Below are positions 10,557 to 14,326 of a stretch of DNA of 22,377 nt, piece by piece. The notes beneath the pieces are model-generated. The model saw only the letters and a list, made by a program, of their open reading frames with translations, ran no database searches and was not told where the DNA came from. The stretch comes from a virus. Both the position numbers and the translations under genes were made by a program. Position 1 is the stretch's first letter. Each line of letters starts with the position of its first letter. The stretch lies in the UHGV virus genome UHGV-0172060. One strand, given 5' to 3'.

Positions 10557-11552
10557 GTGACCGTGAGAGCACTACTGACTCCTGAAATTGCCCCGCGTAT
10601 GGGGATCGTATTGTTCAGGCCAGGTTCAGAGCTGATGCCCCTGTTTATGCAGGGGCGTGTCCTGCTGGAGCCTGAGCCGGAACGTTATTCATCTTTTGCC
10701 AGTGGTGCCGTTCCGGCGGTATCACAACCGCTGGCGGATGATCCTGCCGTTCGGGGCGTGTTCCGCAATGAGGCAGTGATCCGTCGTGCTGGTGGCGTGG
10801 AATGTCTTGAAAGCTGGTTACTTCGTGAAAAGGGCTGTCAGTGGCCTCATTCCGACTGGCACAGCGAGAACATGACCACAATGCGGCACGCGCCGGGCGC
10901 AATCCGTCTGTGCTGGCACTGCGATAACCAGTTGCGCGATCAGTTCACGGAACGGCTGGAATCAATGGCAACGGATAACTGTGCCCGCTGGGTATTGTCT
11001 GTTGTGCGTCGGGATCTCGGTTTTGATGATAGTCACGTTGTGACAATGCCGGAACTGTGCTGGTGGCTGGTTCGTAATGACCTGGCGGATGCCTTACCGG
11101 AAAGTGCAGCCCGTAAGGCACTGAGATTACCGAAGCCTGTTGTGCCGTCTGTCACCCGGGAAAGTGACCTTGTGCCTTCGGTTCCTGCCACCAGCATCAT
11201 CCAGGATAAGGCGAAAAAGGTGCTGGCGCTGAAAGTGGATCCGGAGTCGCCGGAGTCTTTTATGTTACGCCCAAAACGTCGCCGCTGGGTTAATGAAAAG
11301 TACACGCGCTGGGTTAAGACACAGCCGTGTGCATGTTGTGGAAAGCCCGCTGATGATCCCCACCACCTGATAGGCCACGGTCAGGGGGGAATGGGTACAA
11401 AAGCGCATGACCTCTTTGTGTTGCCTTTGTGCAGAAAGCATCACGACGAGCTGCATGCGGATACCGTGGCATTTGAAGAGAAGTATGGCTCCCAGTTGGA
11501 GCTGATATTTCGTTTTATCGATCGTGCGCTGGCAATAGGCGTACTGGCGTAA
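10557..11552 (+). CDS. DUF968-like phage protein with C-terminal Cys/His (HNH-like) metal-binding motif
   Basis: 331-aa ORF with C-terminal CACCGKPADDPHH...CRKHHDELH; GTG start is uncertain (poor SD). Confidence 0.55.
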   Translation: MTVRALLTPEIAPRMGIVLFRPGSELMPLFMQGRVLLEPEPERYSSFASGAVPAVSQPLADDPAVRGVFRNEAVIRRAGGVECLESWLLREKGCQWPHSDWHSENMTTMRHAPGAIRLCWHCDNQLRDQFTERLESMATDNCARWVLSVVRRDLGFDDSHVVTMPELCWWLVRNDLADALPESAARKALRLPKPVVPSVTRESDLVPSVPATSIIQDKAKKVLALKVDPESPESFMLRPKRRRWVNEKYTRWVKTQPCACCGKPADDPHHLIGHGQGGMGTKAHDLFVLPLCRKHHDELHADTVAFEEKYGSQLELIFRFIDRALAIGVLA

Positions 11553-11565
11553 GTGGAGAACGAGC

Positions 11566-12318
11566 ATGAACCTTGAAGCCTTACCAAAATATTACTCCCC
11601 AAAATCTCCCAAATTGAGCGATGAGGCACCGGCGACAGGCTCGAGTGGTTTAACGATTACGGATGTGATGGCTGCGCAGGGGATGGTGCAGTCGAAAGCA
11701 CCGCTTGGGTTTGCCTTATTTCTGGCAAAAGTTGGTGTTCAGGATCCTCAGTTTGCGATTGAAGGTCTGCTCAATTACGCGATGGCACTGGATAACCCGA
11801 CATTGAACAAATTGAGTGAAGAAACCCGGTTACAGATCATCCCTTACCTTGTGAATTTTGCCTTTGCTGATTATTCCAGGTCTGCTGCAAGTAAGGCTCG
11901 CTGTGAGCATTGTGCTGGTACTGGATTTCATAATGTATTGCGCGAAGTGGTGAAACACTCCAGAAGCGGGGAATCTGTTATCAAGGAAGAGTGGGTGAAG
12001 GAACTATGTCAGCATTGTTATGGTAAGGGAGAGGTCAGCACAGCGTGTAGAGGGTGTAAGGGGAAAGGTATTGTACTGGATGAAAAAAGAACCCGGCTTC
12101 ATGGTGCGCCTGTTTATAAGGTTTGTGGGCGTTGCAATGGAAACCGGTTTAGCCGTTTACCAACCACACTGGCGCGGCATCATGTCCAGAAGCTGGTACC
12201 GGATCTGACGGATTATCAGTGGTACAAAGGATATGCAGATGTCATTGATAAACTGGTTACAAAGTGCTGGCAGGAAGAAGCATATGCAGAGACACAATTG
12301 AGAAAAGTGACAAGATAA
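11566..12318 (+). CDS. putative late-gene antiterminator Q-like protein with four CxxCxGxG zinc-finger repeats
   Basis: Lies immediately upstream of a PR'-like promoter and tR'-like terminator; CEHCAGTG, CQHCYGKG, CRGCKGKG, CGRCNGNR repeats; GGAG SD. Confidence 0.55.
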   Translation: MNLEALPKYYSPKSPKLSDEAPATGSSGLTITDVMAAQGMVQSKAPLGFALFLAKVGVQDPQFAIEGLLNYAMALDNPTLNKLSEETRLQIIPYLVNFAFADYSRSAASKARCEHCAGTGFHNVLREVVKHSRSGESVIKEEWVKELCQHCYGKGEVSTACRGCKGKGIVLDEKRTRLHGAPVYKVCGRCNGNRFSRLPTTLARHHVQKLVPDLTDYQWYKGYADVIDKLVTKCWQEEAYAETQLRKVTR

Positions 12319-12385: not shown

Positions 12386-12423
12386 ACGATGGGCTTTGTA
12401 TGTCTACCGTTGATAAGATTTAA

Positions 12424-12450
12424 GAACCCGCCACTGAGCGGGTTTTTTGT
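12424..12450 (+). terminator. tR'-like rho-independent terminator downstream of the late promoter
   Basis: aacccgcc-actga-gcgggtt followed by ttttgt. Confidence 0.7.
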
Positions 12451-12570
12451 ACCTGTAAACTTGGTGCAGTACAGTAAACACGCTGGTGGTCGTGAATACT
12501 GACTTTTTATCTTGCTGGATTTTTAGACAAGAGTTATTGGTATGTCATGTTAACCAGAAGGGAAAAAGAC

Positions 12571-12834
12571 ATGCTAAAACAGCAAGATATGACAGAAACC
12601 GCCGCCGCAGTCCTTCATTTCTTACCTGCTGACAAGTGGGTAACGCCACGCATGATGACGAGAACTACCGGAGTAAGCGAAGCCCGGTGCCAGTTAATAC
12701 TGACTCAGTTAGTTCTGGCGGGTCTGGCGAAGGATAACGGCGGGTGGGTGTTGGTAGCACCTGCCAGCCATTCGCTCATGCTTACTGGTCACAAGCGAAC
12801 CACGGCCCACTGCTTTAGCGCAAAAGCAGAGTGA
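12571..12834 (+). CDS. small winged-helix-like protein (possible PapI/FaeA-like regulator) upstream of a methyltransferase
   Basis: Start placed at the ATG with AAGGGA SD (the ORF-track start at 12547 has no SD); VLHFLPADKWVTPRMMTRTTGVSEARCQLILTQLVLAGLA resembles a PapI-type winged helix. Assignment tentative. Confidence 0.5.
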   Translation: MLKQQDMTETAAAVLHFLPADKWVTPRMMTRTTGVSEARCQLILTQLVLAGLAKDNGGWVLVAPASHSLMLTGHKRTTAHCFSAKAE

Positions 12835-12861
12835 GCCTACCAGAGTTACGCTTACTGATCC

Positions 12862-13914
12862 ATGAAAAATACTGTAAAAATAAACAGTGTTGATTTAATC
12901 AACGCTGATTGCCTGCATTTTATTCAGTCCCTGCCTGATGATTCCATTGACCTGATTGTTACCGATCCGCCTTACTTCAAGGTGAAACCTAACGGTTGGG
13001 ACAATCAGTGGAAAGGGGACGAAGATTACCTTAAGTGGCTGGACCACTGTCTGGCCCAGTTCTGGCGGGTGTTGAAACCTGCCGGAAGCCTTTACCTGTT
13101 CTGTGGGCATCGCCTGGCATCTGATATTGAGATCATGATGCGTGAACGTTTCAACGTGCTTAACCATATCATCTGGGCGAAGCCGTCCGGACGTTGGAAT
13201 GGGTGTAATAAAGAAAGTCTGCGCGCATATTTTCCTGCCACAGAGCGCGTTCTGTTTGCTGAACATTACCGGGGGCCATATCGCGGCAAAAGTGACGGCT
13301 ATGCGGCAAAAGAAAGGGAACTCAAACAGCACATAATGGCACCGCTGATATCGTATTTCAGGGATGCTCGTGCCGAACTGGGTATAACGGCAAAACAAAT
13401 TGCCGAAGCCACAGGTAAGAAAAATATGGTTTCCCACTGGTTTGGTGCCAGTCAGTGGCAGTTGCCGAATGAGGCTGACTATCGGAAGTTACAGGCACTG
13501 TTTTCCCGTATAGCGGTAGAGAAGTTTCAGGAACAACAACTGGAACAACCACACCACCAGCTGGTGGCATCTTATGATTCACTGAATCGCAAATATTCTG
13601 AATTGCTGGATGAGTTTAAATCTCTCCGGCGCTATTTCTCCGTATCAGTCTCCGTGCCTTATACCGATGTCTGGACGCATAAGCCCGTTCAGTTCTACCC
13701 GGGTAAACATCCGTGCGAGAAACCGACGGATATGCTCCGGCAAATAATCAATGCCAGTAGTCGACCTGGTGATCTGGTTGCTGATTTCTTTATGGGATCC
13801 GGTTCCACAATAAAAGCAGCAATGGCGCTGGGGCGTCGGGCGTTAGGTGTTGAACTTGAGTCAGAGCGGTTTAATCAGACGGTGAAAGAGGTAAGTGAAC
13901 TGGTGGGGAAATAA
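12862..13914 (+). CDS. DNA methyltransferase, beta-class (N6-adenine or N4-cytosine), orphan
   Basis: N-terminal DPPY motif (IVTDPPYF), C-terminal AdoMet-binding motif (DFFMGSGST), i.e. beta-class motif order; 350 aa; no neighbouring endonuclease. Confidence 0.85.
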   Translation: MKNTVKINSVDLINADCLHFIQSLPDDSIDLIVTDPPYFKVKPNGWDNQWKGDEDYLKWLDHCLAQFWRVLKPAGSLYLFCGHRLASDIEIMMRERFNVLNHIIWAKPSGRWNGCNKESLRAYFPATERVLFAEHYRGPYRGKSDGYAAKERELKQHIMAPLISYFRDARAELGITAKQIAEATGKKNMVSHWFGASQWQLPNEADYRKLQALFSRIAVEKFQEQQLEQPHHQLVASYDSLNRKYSELLDEFKSLRRYFSVSVSVPYTDVWTHKPVQFYPGKHPCEKPTDMLRQIINASSRPGDLVADFFMGSGSTIKAAMALGRRALGVELESERFNQTVKEVSELVGK

Positions 13915-13919
13915 TTCTG

Positions 13920-13947
13920 GTGGCCACGTTGCGTGGCCTTTTTATTT
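13920..13947 (+). terminator. rho-independent terminator closing the methyltransferase cargo
   Basis: ggccacg-ttgc-gtggcc followed by tttttattt, directly after the methyltransferase stop. Confidence 0.7.
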
Positions 13948-13990: not shown

Positions 13991-14326
13991 ATGCCTCATA
14001 ACCCAAATACCTGGCCGGACTGGCTGGAGTTGTTTCAGAGCTGGTGGCGTGGAGACACACCGCTGGGTGCAGTGATTATGTCGATCGTTATGGCTGGTTT
14101 GCGCATCGCCTATTTTGGCGGTGGTGGTGGCTGGAAGCGAAAAACGCTCGAGATTTTGCTCTGTGGCGCTCTGACGCTGACCTTTGCATCCGCTCTTGAA
14201 TATGTCGGATGGCCTAAATCGCTTTCTGTTGCCATTGGTGGTGGCGTGGGGCTGATCGGTGTCGATGCTATTCGTGGGGCTGCAATGCGAGTAATCGGTA
14301 ACAAATTTGGTAGCTCGAAGGAGTAA
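13991..14326 (+). CDS. holin (three predicted transmembrane segments)
   Basis: Start at MPHNPN with GAGGTGA SD; three hydrophobic segments; immediately upstream of the endolysin. Confidence 0.7.
   Translation: MPHNPNTWPDWLELFQSWWRGDTPLGAVIMSIVMAGLRIAYFGGGGGWKRKTLEILLCGALTLTFASALEYVGWPKSLSVAIGGGVGLIGVDAIRGAAMRVIGNKFGSSKE

What the first reader, a model, noticed from the sequence alone, without database searches (positions are those of the whole stretch)
12547..13947. Winged-helix gene plus beta-class DNA methyltransferase inserted between tR' and the holin
Between the tR'-like terminator (12424-12450) and the holin there is a two-gene insertion (small winged-helix-like protein, then a 350-aa DPPY...FxGxG methyltransferase) that ends in its own strong terminator (13920-13947). 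This is the classic cargo site of lambdoid phages (stx, nmpC and similar). No restriction endonuclease partner is present, so it is either an orphan protective or epigenetic methyltransferase under a dedicated small regulator, or a remnant restriction-modification module. The small protein looks PapI/FaeA-like, and PapI-type regulators act through methylation-sensitive switches, so a phage-borne methylation-dependent regulatory module is possible.
Basis: partly seen in the sequence, partly recalled or inferred. Interest (0 to 1): 0.65.

Follow-up and report, generated by a model that had tools for sequence, protein, structure and literature searches.

The report
Phage late-gene promiscuous adenine methyltransferase module
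This is the well-known slot behind the late-gene antiterminator of a lambda-like E. coli phage, and it carries an orphan DNA methyltransferase 81% identical to M.EcoGII (an enzyme shown to methylate adenine in any sequence), plus a small winged-helix gene of unknown role and a conserved folded RNA leader that matches no Rfam family; in this copy a 63-base deletion has fused the last two.

Summary
Between a tR'-like terminator (12422-12447) and holin S (13991-14326) lie a small ORF, an intact 350-aa beta-class methyltransferase (12862-13914) and a second terminator (13922-13938).

- **Interpretation:** only partly supported.
[quoted passage not shown] It is therefore an orphan enzyme with probably no target motif. 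I infer that it is Q-dependent, made late, and serves against restriction. It is not a remnant of a restriction-modification system.
- **Small gene plus methyltransferase:** the same pair is already sequenced in SfV (orf47/orf48), mEp460, phiP27 and many Stx phages. The junction region occurs in 1064 of 5426 complete E. coli genomes.
- **The small protein:** it belongs to a real family of 62-67 aa under purifying selection (PHROG 331). The predicted fold is a confident winged helix, but nothing links it specifically to PapI/FaeA or to C-proteins.
- **The 95-aa ORF:** it results from a 63-bp deletion found in no other sequence examined. The deletion removes the protein's wing and stop codon and fuses it to the methyltransferase leader.
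- **Unexpected result:** the ~135-nt leader before the methyltransferase gene is a conserved structured RNA. Covariation supports it, it has no Rfam match, and it always sits next to this methyltransferase.

Its function, and that of the winged-helix protein, remain inferred.

The parts
11566..12318 (+). Late-gene antiterminator Q. It defines the start of the late operon and lies upstream of the module.
   Evidence: Pfam Antiterm PF03589, E=2.1e-53. Annotated as Q in the homologous SfV and Ayreon loci.
12422..12450 (+). tR'-like intrinsic terminator: stem AAGAACCCGC/GCGGGUUUUU followed by a U-run.
   Evidence: Folds at -13.9 kcal/mol, z=-3.5. Found as an inverted repeat. The homologous site is annotated or scanned as a terminator in SfV and Ayreon.
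12571..12745 (+). Native part of the small winged-helix gene (PHROG 331 family), residues 1-58: conserved N-terminus MLKQQDMTETA, helices H1-H3 and invariant RCQLILTQL. The upstream ATG at 12547 is probably not the real start.
   Evidence: phrog_331 at E=5e-25. Homologues found. An intact ORF in 68 of 86 loci, almost all of 62-67 aa. Median dN/dS 0.29, and 0.12 for H3. AlphaFold2 pLDDT 87.7 for an intact relative. A 1-nt indel in SfV excludes ATG 12547.
12743..12746 (.). Junction of a 63-bp deletion found in no other sequence examined. Lost are the wing strand YGNKFRRCQ, the stop codon, the hairpin that follows the gene, and the 5' end of the methyltransferase leader (GUGAAAAUGGGC, the 5' strand of helix P0).
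   Evidence: Alignment with Ayreon and SfV. The E. coli genome matches listed span 204 nt against 141 nt in the window. The junction string is absent from all fetched loci.
12746..12834 (+). Read-through tail of the fused ORF, 29 codons (WVLVAPASHSLMLTGHKRTTAHCFSAKAE), translated from leader RNA sequence. It is not native protein.
   Evidence: Translation. In the AlphaFold2 model of the window variant, residues 66-87 have pLDDT below 50 and the overall value is 60. The leader reading frame is not conserved in relatives, which carry 1-nt indels and early stops.
12739..12861 (+). Remnant of the conserved structured 5' leader RNA of the methyltransferase. P1 is 12739-12750 with 12758-12769, where the deletion replaced one U-A pair with a G.A mismatch. 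P2 is 12771-12780 with 12790-12799. The orphaned 3' strand of P0 is 12805-12809. P3 is 12811-12816 with 12823-12828. P4 is 12831-12836 with 12850-12855. No Shine-Dalgarno sequence precedes the AUG at 12862.
   Evidence: Structure tested on a structure-blind MAFFT alignment: 86% of cells paired against 33-42% for slid controls, and 19 pairs with changes on both sides against 8-12. After realignment to the covariance model: 89% paired and 22 such pairs. The window scores 108.8 bits against 150-166 for most intact E. coli-type copies. No Rfam family matches.
12862..13914 (+). Orphan beta-class N6-adenine DNA methyltransferase of the M.EcoGII family, apparently intact.
   Evidence: PF01555 at E=1.6e-42. 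80.5% identity over 349 aa to M.EcoGII, 88% to Anc291 and 70% to SUPREM. 98-99% identical to the enzymes of vB_EcoM-720R4, cdtI and mEp460. DPPY and FxGxG are present.
13922..13947 (+). Intrinsic terminator closing the methyltransferase cassette: GGCCACG-UUG-CGUGGCC followed by UUUUUAUUU.
   Evidence: Found by the terminator scan. Folds at -12.5 kcal/mol. Annotated as a terminator at the same place in SfV, Ayreon and N15.
13991..14326 (+). Holin S, the first lysis gene and the downstream boundary of the module.
   Evidence: Pfam Phage_holin_3_1 PF05106, E=2.6e-27. SfV S lies at the homologous position.

Best explanation
This is the methyltransferase module of the late operon of a lambdoid E. 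coli phage.

**The enzyme.** The 350-aa protein belongs to the M.EcoGII family. It is an orphan beta-class enzyme that very probably methylates N6 of adenine with little or no sequence specificity.

**Expression (inferred from position).** The gene lies downstream of Q and the tR'-type terminator. It should therefore be silent in the lysogen and transcribed only when Q makes RNA polymerase resistant to terminators after induction. The same modified polymerase would read through the cassette's own terminator into the lysis genes.

**Purpose (inferred).** The enzyme would heavily methylate replicating phage DNA before packaging. That would protect progeny against many adenine-sensitive Type I, II and III restriction systems in the next host.

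**Extra control (inferred).** Because the enzyme is toxic, a further layer of control is plausible. The methyltransferase mRNA begins with a conserved ~135-nt structured leader. A long-range helix P0 encloses hairpins P1 and P2, followed by P3 and P4, and there is no Shine-Dalgarno sequence. I infer that the leader sets the level of methyltransferase translation.

**The small gene (inferred).** The 62-67-aa basic winged-helix protein encoded just upstream is a conserved but dispensable partner of the cassette. I consider it most likely a nucleic-acid-binding modulator of methyltransferase expression or action. This would resemble Com acting on mom in phage Mu, but with a different fold.

**This window.** A 63-bp deletion has removed the wing and stop codon of the small protein and the 5' end of the leader. 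Ribosomes translating the fused ORF would now run through the leader to within 27 nt of the methyltransferase start. The regulatory part of the module is therefore altered here, while the enzyme itself looks intact.

**Shown versus inferred.** Shown: family membership, gene order, purifying selection on the small gene, its fold, and conservation and covariation of the RNA structure. Inferred: late expression, non-specific activity of this particular enzyme, the anti-restriction role, and the functions of the leader and the small protein.
For: **Methyltransferase**
- PF01555 at E=1.6e-42.
- 81% identity over the full length to M.EcoGII, with no gap through the target-recognition region. It is 88% and 86% identical to the ancestral variants Anc291 and Anc289, and 70% to SUPREM.
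[quoted passage not shown] M.EcoGII itself methylates adenine in DNA in any sequence context (PMC5778455).
- M.EcoGII is prophage-borne, unexpressed in the lysogen, and slows growth when expressed. Its authors propose that it overcomes host restriction (PMC5778455; review PMC12707154).
- A weak HTH_3 match at residues 167-193 fits the published helical target-recognition domain at residues 160-237.

**Context**
- The same slot, Q, terminator, methyltransferase, terminator, holin, is occupied in SfV, Ayreon/mEp460, phiNP, Flotzy, yong2, N15 and PY54.
- It lies directly upstream of stx2 in phiP27 and 1720a-02.
- No promoter-like site above chance lies inside the module.

**Small gene**
- Median dN/dS is 0.29.
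- An intact ORF is present in 68 of 86 loci, and in almost all of them it is 62-67 aa.
- All 78 IMG/VR loci that carry the gene and extend far enough have the methyltransferase downstream.
- It is found with methyltransferases as divergent as 61-64% identity, in Proteus, Morganella, Xenorhabdus and Photorhabdus.
- M.EcoGII is active when cloned alone, so the small protein is not a subunit required for catalysis.

**Leader**
- Covariation tests are positive.
- G.U pairs fit the + strand only.
- All 94 IMG/VR loci with the leader's 5' motif and enough downstream DNA have the methyltransferase directly downstream.
- It is present in N15 and PY54 as well.
Against: - There are no expression or methylation data for this phage or any close relative. 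Silence in the lysogen is taken from M.EcoGI/II in another strain.
- 81% identity does not prove the same (lack of) specificity.
- 14 of 77 GTDB loci, and phage Flotzy, keep the leader and methyltransferase without the small gene. The leader is the same whether or not the small gene is present. This weakens any strict dependence of one on the other.
- Xenorhabdus and Photorhabdus keep the small gene but only a shortened leader.
- In N15 and PY54 the probable homologue of the small gene lies upstream of the late promoter, in another transcription unit.
- The minimum-free-energy fold of a single intact leader reproduces P1 and P3 but not P0 or P2.
- The sequences are phylogenetically related, so shuffle statistics overstate significance. 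Only the slid-partner control addresses this.
Confidence: 0.7

Rival explanations
1. The small winged-helix protein is a controller-type (C-protein-like) transcription factor. It would bind an operator in the module and switch methyltransferase transcription on or off.
For: - The protein is basic and has a DNA-binding-type winged-helix fold.
- NCBI names some alleles 'TrmB family transcriptional regulator'.
- It is always immediately upstream of the methyltransferase.
- A near-palindrome, CTGCTTTAGC/GCAAAAGCAG, lies about 35 nt before the methyltransferase ATG.
Against: - That palindrome is helix P3 of the RNA. Its arms covary in PY54 and N15, which points to RNA pairing rather than a fixed operator sequence.
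- No promoter above chance lies between the two genes.
- A terminator-like hairpin separates the two genes in many alleles.
- C-proteins are Xre-type HTH proteins, and this one is not.
- The methyltransferase cassette persists unchanged without the small gene in 14 GTDB loci.
Confidence: 0.2
2. The pair forms a PapI/FaeA-type methylation-dependent epigenetic switch. The small protein would read the methylation state set by the methyltransferase at specific sites and control phase-variable expression.
For: - The fold class (winged helix) is shared with PapI.
- Some prokaryotic winged-helix domains are reported to sense 6mA (abstract of PMC11037411).
- A GATC directly precedes the methyltransferase ATG in most copies.
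Against: - No member of the family matches Pfam FaeA, even with a permissive cut-off.
- The enzyme family is non-specific, so it cannot create a site-specific methylation pattern.
- From its position and by analogy with M.EcoGI/II, it should be silent in the lysogen, where a heritable switch would have to operate.
Confidence: 0.04
3. The module is the decayed remnant of a Type II restriction-modification system that has lost its endonuclease.
For: A methyltransferase preceded by a small HTH-like gene superficially resembles a C-M-R operon.
Against: - No nuclease ORF or pseudogene lies between Q and the holin.
- The same endonuclease-free order appears in every phage record inspected, down to about 48% methyltransferase identity.
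- Terminators bound the cassette tightly on both sides.
- The closest characterised enzyme is a known orphan.
Confidence: 0.02
4. The small winged-helix gene is an independent cargo gene whose function has nothing to do with the methyltransferase, for example a host regulator or an exclusion or anti-defence factor. It would sit next to the methyltransferase only because both occupy the same cargo slot.
For: - It has its own 5' untranslated region and, in many alleles, its own terminator.
- It is absent from 14 GTDB loci and from Flotzy, with no change in the leader or methyltransferase.
- Its alleles recombine as modules, independently of the methyltransferase.
- There is a weak PHROG match to a Ren-like exclusion protein, E=0.043.
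Against: - In every case examined it lies directly upstream of this methyltransferase and nowhere else (57 phage records, 78 of 78 IMG/VR loci).
- The adjacency survives divergence to about 21% pairwise identity in the small protein and about 61% in the methyltransferase, despite phage mosaicism.
- Probable homologues accompany the methyltransferase in N15 and PY54 as well.
Confidence: 0.25
5. The methyltransferase is a sequence-specific Dam-like enzyme (GATC), as implied by 'DNA adenine methylase' annotations and by analogy with M.EcoVT2Dam of Stx phages.
For: Several records annotate it as 'DNA adenine methylase' or dam.
Against: - A methylome study of STEC lists M.EcoVT2Dam (GATC) and the M.EcoGI/M.EcoGII homologues as separate enzymes (PMC6602927).
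- This protein is 81% identical to M.EcoGII and 88% to a reconstructed ancestral variant of that family, whose tested members were largely non-sequence-specific.
- It is beta-class with a helical target-recognition domain, unlike the alpha-class E. coli and T4 Dam enzymes (established knowledge).
Confidence: 0.08

Closest known systems
M.EcoGII and M.EcoGI (E. coli O104:H4 C227-11 prophages), non-specific N6-adenine methyltransferases
   Same: - 80.5% identity over 349 aa.
- Same beta-class motif order and the same length.
- Carried by a prophage and an orphan.
- Murray et al. name the enzyme of phage 1720a-02 as a close relative. In that phage the gene sits in the same slot as here, preceded by the same small gene.
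   Different: About 19% of residues differ. The activity of this particular enzyme is untested. The published work does not describe the upstream small gene or the leader RNA.
SfV orf47-orf48, mEp460/Ayreon, cdtI, phiP27 L23-L24 and Stx2 phage equivalents
   Same: The same two genes in the same order, with the same flanking terminators. The region is about 98% identical in DNA to SfV and mEp460 outside the deletion.
   Different: The window copy has a 63-bp deletion that fuses the small ORF to the leader. SfV carries a different allele of the small protein (about 51% identity), although the flanking DNA is nearly identical.
Phage Mu com-mom
   Same: A toxic DNA-modification gene that is silent in lysogens (PMC12707154). 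It is preceded by a small basic protein gene and a structured leader. From established knowledge, Com binds the leader hairpin to permit mom translation.
   Different: Com is a zinc-finger protein and this one is a winged helix. No homology exists. Sequestration of the methyltransferase start codon has not been shown. The small gene is dispensable in some loci. Mom makes a different modification, and Mu is not lambdoid.
N15 gp51-gp52 and PY54 ORF59-gp60 (telomere phage-plasmids)
   Same: - The methyltransferases are 56-60% identical and lie directly before the holin.
- The leader RNA is detected by the covariance model (60 and 76 bits).
- The upstream small ORFs share the MTE.A motif and a weak profile match (E about 1e-5, probability 70-79%).
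   Different: In these phages the small gene lies upstream of the late promoter and terminator rather than downstream of them. Homology of the small proteins is only probable.
C (controller) proteins of Type II restriction-modification systems
   Same: A small DNA-binding-type protein encoded just upstream of a modification gene.
   Different: C-proteins have an Xre-type HTH, act with an endonuclease gene, and bind C-boxes at their own promoter. Here the fold is a winged helix, no endonuclease is present, and no promoter or C-box was found.
PapI / FaeA
   Same: A small stand-alone winged-helix protein.
Z-alpha domains (ADAR1, E3L, PKZ, ZBP1)

Membership tests
Beta-class N6/N4 amino-methyltransferases (Pfam PF01555) | Match to the family model above the curated cut-off | tested here: met
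   146.4 bits against a cut-off of 26.7, E=1.6e-42, covering model positions 1-220 of 221.
Beta-class N6/N4 amino-methyltransferases (Pfam PF01555) | Motif order: catalytic DPPY at the N-terminus, target-recognition region in the middle, FxGxG (AdoMet binding) at the C-terminus | tested here: met
   TDPPYF at residues 34-39 and FFMGSGST at 308-315. Solved beta-class enzymes (M.RsrI, M.MboIIA, CcrM and others) match both halves.
M.EcoGII family (non-specific adenine methyltransferases of enterobacterial prophages) | Close full-length sequence similarity to M.EcoGII, including the central target-recognition domain | tested here: met
   80.5% identity over 349 aa with two single-residue gaps near the C-terminus. 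88% identity to Anc291. The M.EcoGII sequence was machine-read from a supplementary PDF and may contain a few misread letters.
M.EcoGII family (non-specific adenine methyltransferases of enterobacterial prophages) | Methylates adenine in any sequence context | not testable with these tools
   Shown biochemically for M.EcoGII. Nanopore RNA sequencing found its reconstructed variants largely non-sequence-specific. For the window enzyme this is inferred from sequence.
M.EcoGII family (non-specific adenine methyltransferases of enterobacterial prophages) | Prophage-borne and silent in the lysogen | tested here: inconclusive
   The position behind Q and a terminator, with no internal promoter above chance, fits this. 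No expression data exist.
Type II restriction-modification system | A cognate restriction endonuclease gene next to the methyltransferase | tested here: not met
   Only Q, the small gene, the methyltransferase and the holin are present. The same holds in all related loci inspected.
C (controller) proteins | Xre-type helix-turn-helix fold (Pfam HTH_3 and related) | tested here: not met
   No HTH_3 match for any of six family members. The predicted fold is a winged helix.
PapI / FaeA regulators | Match to the FaeA/PapI family model | tested here: not met
   No FaeA match appeared in Pfam scans run with cut-offs of E 0.1 and E 10. The speed filters drop most matches above about 0.1, so a very weak similarity cannot be excluded.
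PapI / FaeA regulators | Acts with Lrp at paired Dam (GATC) sites in a phase-variable promoter | not tested
   No such promoter region is evident. The partner enzyme family is non-specific rather than GATC-specific.
Winged-helix (wHTH) DNA/RNA-binding domains | H1-H2-H3 three-helix bundle followed by a beta-hairpin wing | tested here: met
Z-alpha (Z-DNA/Z-RNA binding) domains | Conserved contact residues: Asn and Tyr in helix 3, Pro-Pro-x-Trp in the wing (from my own knowledge) | tested here: not met
   By inspection, helix 3 reads EARCQLILTQLVLAG and the wing reads KDNGGYGNKFRRCQ or DYQFGCYRRLQ. The signature is absent. Identity to Z-alpha structures is 8-17%.
Mu Com-mom type translational control | A small protein binds a leader hairpin and frees the start codon of a toxic modification gene | not testable with these tools
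   The required parts are present: a small basic protein, a structured leader and a toxic enzyme family. Binding and start-codon occlusion are untested. Com's zinc-finger fold is not shared.
Any described RNA family (Rfam 15) | Covariance-model match to the leader | tested here: not met
   No match at E up to 1 covers the leader, either in the window or in five intact loci: Ayreon, yong2, PSTRCR_117lys, N15 and PY54.

The most novel reading that the evidence does not exclude
The conserved leader RNA and the winged-helix protein together form a previously undescribed post-transcriptional safety switch for a promiscuous, self-toxic DNA/RNA adenine methyltransferase. One version has the winged helix binding the leader, or binding m6A-modified nucleic acid, to time or limit methyltransferase synthesis, as Com does for mom but with unrelated parts. 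Another has the leader itself acting as a sensor, for example of SAM or SAH, or as the enzyme's own autoregulatory binding site. Either way this would be a new class of cis-regulatory RNA, specific to phage methyltransferases and spread across Enterobacterales prophages and N15-like phage-plasmids.
Probability: 0.3. Interest if true: 0.6.

Novelty: new member of a known kind. Interest (0 to 1): 0.4.

Why it matters
**What is ordinary.** The gene pair is common. The methyltransferase family is already characterised and is sold as a reagent (EcoGII). Identical arrangements have been in GenBank since SfV.

**What is useful.**
1. The annotation is corrected. This enzyme should be expected to methylate adenine without a motif, not at GATC. 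It should be looked for in induced phage DNA, not in the lysogen methylome.
2. How such a toxic enzyme is kept in check is an open point in the M.EcoGII literature. Its gene is always preceded by a covarying structured RNA and usually by one particular winged-helix gene. That gives two concrete, testable candidates for the control.
3. The junction region is present in about a fifth of complete E. coli genomes (1064 of 5426). The module sits directly upstream of stx2 in several Shiga-toxin phages. Its regulation is therefore relevant to the host range of phages that spread toxin genes.

Tried and rejected
- **M.EcoVT2Dam (GATC).** I first suspected this identity from memory. A methylome paper lists that enzyme separately from the M.EcoGI/II homologues, and direct comparison placed the window enzyme with M.EcoGII.
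- **Lambda orf-64.** I wondered whether it is the homologue of the small gene. No lambda record appeared among the 57 tblastn matches, so I dropped the idea.
- **Sequence-only searches with the small protein.** The search against solved structures gave nothing significant (best E=0.3). NCBIfam gave nothing. Only structure prediction was informative.
- **A conserved leader peptide.** The E. coli-type leader holds a 33-codon ORF (MGGWWVLVAP...). Relatives have 1-nt indels, an early stop (PSTRCR) or no AUG (Xenorhabdus), so the conservation is at the RNA level.
- **RNAalifold on the MAFFT alignment.** It recovered only P0 and part of P1, because MAFFT misaligned the variable arms. I therefore defined the structure by hand and tested it with slid-partner controls.
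- **Pseudoknot between the GGU of the P2 loop and the ACC after P2.** Rejected on geometry and because the changes in Proteus and L015 are not compensatory.
- **N15 gp51 as the late antiterminator.** Rejected because the telomere phages carry their putative Q in the immB region (abstract of PMC4488713).
- **Hypermethylated virion DNA.** A literature search for evidence in such phages found nothing relevant.
- **Terminator scan.** It missed the tR'-like hairpin in the window, apparently because the stem extension consumed the U-run. Folding and the homologous Ayreon match confirm the hairpin.


Full report
**1. What is in the sequence**

The window is part of an E. coli lambdoid phage or prophage. 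Its closest record is vB_EcoM-720R4, at 97.4% identity over 84% of the window.

Downstream of the antiterminator gene Q (11566-12318, PF03589) the order of features is as follows.

- A tR'-like hairpin at 12422-12447 followed by a U-run (-13.9 kcal/mol).
- An ORF at 12547-12834.
- A 350-aa ORF at 12862-13914.
- A second hairpin with a U-run at 13922-13947.
- Holin S at 13991-14326 (PF05106).

There is no nuclease gene.

**2. The methyltransferase**

It matches Pfam N6_N4_Mtase at E=1.6e-42. DPPY lies near the N-terminus and FxGxG near the C-terminus, which is the beta-class order. Solved beta-class enzymes match only the two catalytic halves, leaving a central region of about 150 residues.

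That architecture is the one published for M.EcoGII: a Rossmann core at residues 1-134 and 260-349, and a four-helix target-recognition domain at 160-237 containing a helix-turn-helix (PMC11551740). I took the M.EcoGII sequence from that paper's supplement. The window protein compares as follows:

| Compared with | Identity |
|---|---|
| M.EcoGII (349 aa) | 80.5% |
| Anc291 (reconstructed ancestor) | 88% |
| Anc289 (reconstructed ancestor) | 86% |
| SUPREM (engineered variant) | 70% |

The supplement text was machine-read from a PDF and may contain a few wrong letters.

M.EcoGII methylates adenine in DNA in any sequence context. It is encoded on a prophage, is not expressed in the lysogen, and slows growth when expressed. 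Its authors proposed that it lets the phage overcome host restriction (PMC5778455; review PMC12707154). Nanopore RNA sequencing found the ancestral variants largely non-sequence-specific as well.

I had first suspected the GATC-specific M.EcoVT2Dam. A methylome study lists that enzyme separately from the M.EcoGI/II homologues (PMC6602927), so I dropped the idea.

**3. Context and expression logic**

The same slot is occupied in many phages.

- The full order Q, terminator, small gene, methyltransferase, terminator, lysis genes is seen in SfV (orf47/orf48), Ayreon and phiNP. The order Q, small gene, methyltransferase, lysis genes is also seen in yong2 and Morganella IME1369_02.
- The small gene and methyltransferase are adjacent in mEp460, cdtI and Providencia PSTRCR_117lys as well.
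- In phiP27 and 1720a-02 the pair sits directly upstream of tRNA genes and stx2.
- N15, PY54 and Flotzy have the methyltransferase directly before the holin.

A 141-nt query across the junction between the small gene and the leader matches 1064 of 5426 complete E. coli genomes. No promoter-like site above chance lies inside the module.

I therefore infer the following. The methyltransferase is transcribed only by Q-modified polymerase after induction. It methylates replicating phage DNA before packaging. The cassette terminator is read through into the lysis genes. This step rests on position and on the behaviour of M.EcoGI/II; it is not shown for this phage.

**4. The small gene**

It belongs to PHROG 331, a family of unknown function (E=5e-25). 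Its homologues are confined to enterobacterial phages and prophages.

*It is a real gene.*
- 68 of 86 related loci carry an intact ORF, and in almost all of them it is 62-67 aa.
- Median pairwise dN/dS is 0.29, and 0.12 over helix 3.

*Sequence features.*
- The N-terminus MLKQQDMTETA and the segment RCQLILTQL are nearly invariant.
- Helices 1-2 and the C-terminal wing each come in at least two forms.
- These forms recombine at the conserved segment.

*Family assignment.* Pfam gives only matches below threshold, to TrmB, MarR_2, DprA_WH and HTH_20. None is to FaeA or HTH_3. 'Winged helix' is confirmed; 'PapI/FaeA-like' and 'C-protein' are not.

*Linkage to the methyltransferase.*
- In 78 of 78 IMG/VR loci that extend far enough, the gene lies directly upstream of the methyltransferase. 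I never saw it in any other context.
- The pairing persists where the methyltransferase has diverged to 61-64% identity, as in Proteus, Morganella, Xenorhabdus and Photorhabdus.
- N15 gp51 and PY54 ORF59 are probable distant homologues (hhalign E about 1e-5, probability 70-79%). They lie upstream of the late promoter.
- The gene is missing from 14 GTDB loci and from Flotzy with no change to the rest of the cassette.
- M.EcoGII is active when cloned alone.

It is therefore a conserved accessory, not a subunit required for catalysis.

**5. The window copy is a deletion derivative**

Alignment with Ayreon and SfV shows that 63 bp are missing between two GGCGG microhomologies, with the junction at about 12743-12745. 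The deletion removes four things:

- the last nine codons (YGNKFRRCQ, the second wing strand);
- the stop codon;
- the hairpin that follows the gene;
- the first ~13 nt of the methyltransferase leader.

The reading frame then continues for 29 codons through the leader to the TGA at 12832-12834. That is how the 95-aa ORF arises.

The junction is absent from every fetched locus. The 40 best-ranked of the E. coli genome matches all carry the extra 63 bp. A model of the fused protein is poor: pLDDT is 60, and residues 66-87 score below 50.

**6. A conserved structured leader RNA (not part of the original finding)**

The ~135 nt before the methyltransferase AUG are more conserved than either flanking gene across E. 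coli, Klebsiella, Citrobacter, Hafnia, Providencia, Morganella and Proteus.

*Proposed structure.*

| Element | Typical sequence | Notes |
|---|---|---|
| P0 | UGGGC / GCCCA | Long-range helix that encloses P1 and P2 |
| P1 | about 11-12 bp hairpin | |
| P2 | about 10 bp hairpin | Internal C.A/A.C mismatches in the E. coli type; these become C-G/G-C in yong2 and Providencia |
| P3 | UGCUUU / AAAGCA | Follows P0 |
| P4 | GUGAGC / GCUUAC | Nine nucleotides separate it from the AUG; no Shine-Dalgarno sequence is present |

*Test on a structure-blind MAFFT alignment of 47 distinct sequences.*

| Measure | Observed | Partner slid 1-3 columns |
|---|---|---|
| Cells forming standard pairs | 86.3% | 33-42% |
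| Pairs with changes on both sides | 19 | 8-12 |

None of 500 shuffles reached the observed values.

*Test after realignment of 59 sequences to a covariance model.* 89.2% of cells pair, and 22 pairs show changes on both sides against 6-12 in the controls. One P2 pair shows CG 27, AU 13, UA 9 and UG 4. In P1, Proteus L081, N15 and PY54 have entirely different but complementary arms. One genome changes P0 from UGGGC/GCCCA to UGAGC/GCUCA.

*Other properties.*
- Many G.U pairs fit only the + strand.
- The 33-codon ORF in the E. coli-type leader is not conserved: relatives have 1-nt indels, early stops, or no AUG.
- No Rfam 15 family matches at E up to 1, in the window or in five intact loci.
- The leader begins directly after a terminator-type U-run in all contexts.
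- All 94 IMG/VR loci with its 5' motif and enough downstream sequence have the methyltransferase directly downstream.
- Xenorhabdus and Photorhabdus keep only the 5' GUGAAAUG and P1.

*In the window.* The deletion removes the 5' strand of P0. Because of the microhomology it rebuilds P1 with one mismatch. The covariance model still scores the remnant at 108.8 bits, against 150-166 for most intact E. coli-type copies.

*Caveats.* The sequences are phylogenetically related. I could not run a test that accounts for phylogeny. The minimum-free-energy fold of one intact copy reproduces P1 and P3 but not P0 or P2.

**7. How it most likely works**

- *High confidence.* The module is an M.EcoGII-family orphan methyltransferase cassette in the late operon.
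- *Moderately high confidence, inferred.* The enzyme has no sequence specificity, depends on Q, is made late, and protects phage DNA against restriction.
- *Moderate confidence.* The leader is a cis-acting RNA that sets methyltransferase translation. It is adjacent to the start codon, the gene has no Shine-Dalgarno sequence, and the enzyme is toxic.
- *Low to moderate confidence.* The winged-helix protein modulates the expression or action of the cassette. The nearest functional analogy is Com acting on mom in phage Mu, although the folds differ.

The main rival for the small gene is that it is an unrelated cargo gene that stays linked by position. Its strict adjacency to the methyltransferase argues against that rival; its dispensability argues for it.

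In this window the fused ORF would carry ribosomes through the leader, and the hairpin between the genes is gone. Any such control is therefore probably altered.

**8. Comparison with what is known, and novelty**

The methyltransferase is a new member of a characterised family. The gene pair is already deposited many times, annotated as 'DNA methylase' plus 'hypothetical protein' or 'TrmB family regulator'. The PapI-type epigenetic switch and the R-M remnant are not supported.

What appears to be undescribed is the structured leader and its fixed association with this methyltransferase family and, usually, with one winged-helix gene. The leader matches no Rfam family, and the M.EcoGII papers I read do not mention it.

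I score overall interest at 0.4. The finding as stated is ordinary. The leader and winged-helix observation is a concrete lead of moderate novelty on how a promiscuous, self-toxic methyltransferase is kept under control.

Noticed in passing
window 12739-12861; intact copies e.g. L002:3162-3305, L001:2971-3114, L003:2365-2503, L007:1863-2003: A conserved ~135-nt structured RNA leader lies directly upstream of every M.EcoGII-family methyltransferase gene examined. Covariation supports helices P0-P4, and no Rfam family matches. The window copy is truncated at its 5' end by the 63-bp deletion.
   Followed up: yes
small-gene alleles in L001, L002 and proteins P0052-P0057, P0064-P0117: The small winged-helix gene is a mosaic. 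Two very different H1-H2 modules and two different C-terminal wings occur in all combinations. They apparently recombine at the invariant RCQLILTQL coding segment, while the flanking DNA stays about 98% identical.
   Followed up: partly
window 12857-12864 and homologous positions in A4/A6: A Dam site (GATC) lies immediately before the methyltransferase start codon (CTGATCCATG or CTGATCTATG) in most E. coli, Proteus and Providencia-type copies. It is absent from yong2, N15 and PY54. This may be chance.
   Followed up: no
window 12416-12552, minus strand: A sub-threshold Rfam match to the Salmonella sRNA candidate STnc130 (29.5 bits against a cut-off of 55, E=0.063, full model length). It covers the tR' hairpin and the 5' untranslated region of the small gene on the opposite strand.
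   Followed up: no
L010:987-1087 and L007:1787-1862: Weak matches to isrJ and isrK (Gifsy-prophage sRNAs), below their cut-offs, in the region of the late promoter and terminator in Providencia phage PSTRCR_117lys and PY54.
   Followed up: no
L021 (Vagococcus sp.), L038 (Chryseobacterium sp.), L056 (Collinsella), L029 (Geobacteraceae MAG), L013/L025 ('Proteobacteria bacterium' MAGs): Genome records of non-enterobacterial organisms carry this methyltransferase at 80-92% identity, with the E. coli-type leader. This most likely reflects contamination or mis-binning rather than true host range.
   Followed up: no
phage records ON470584.1 (vB_EcoM-689R6) and PV340566.1 (PhiR47_1); IMG/VR loci L195, L265, L268, L272, L281: Close relatives of the window phage have a truncated methyltransferase (only residues 235-350 in 689R6). 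In PhiR47_1 the match to the window ends at position 12489, just before the small gene. Five IMG/VR loci give only partial methyltransferase matches. The cassette is therefore often lost or decayed.
   Followed up: partly
L002:2149-2832 (Ayreon/mEp460): Ayreon and mEp460 carry an extra cassette of about 700 bp (two hypothetical ORFs) between Q's terminator and a second copy of the tR'-like terminator. The window lacks it. The slot therefore accumulates cassettes bounded by terminators.
   Followed up: no
window 10557-11552 and 15366-15716: A DUF968/YdfU-family protein with an HNH-like C-terminus lies directly upstream of Q. A small HNH endonuclease gene lies downstream of the lysis genes, before the terminase region. 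Both are typical of this phage group.
   Followed up: no
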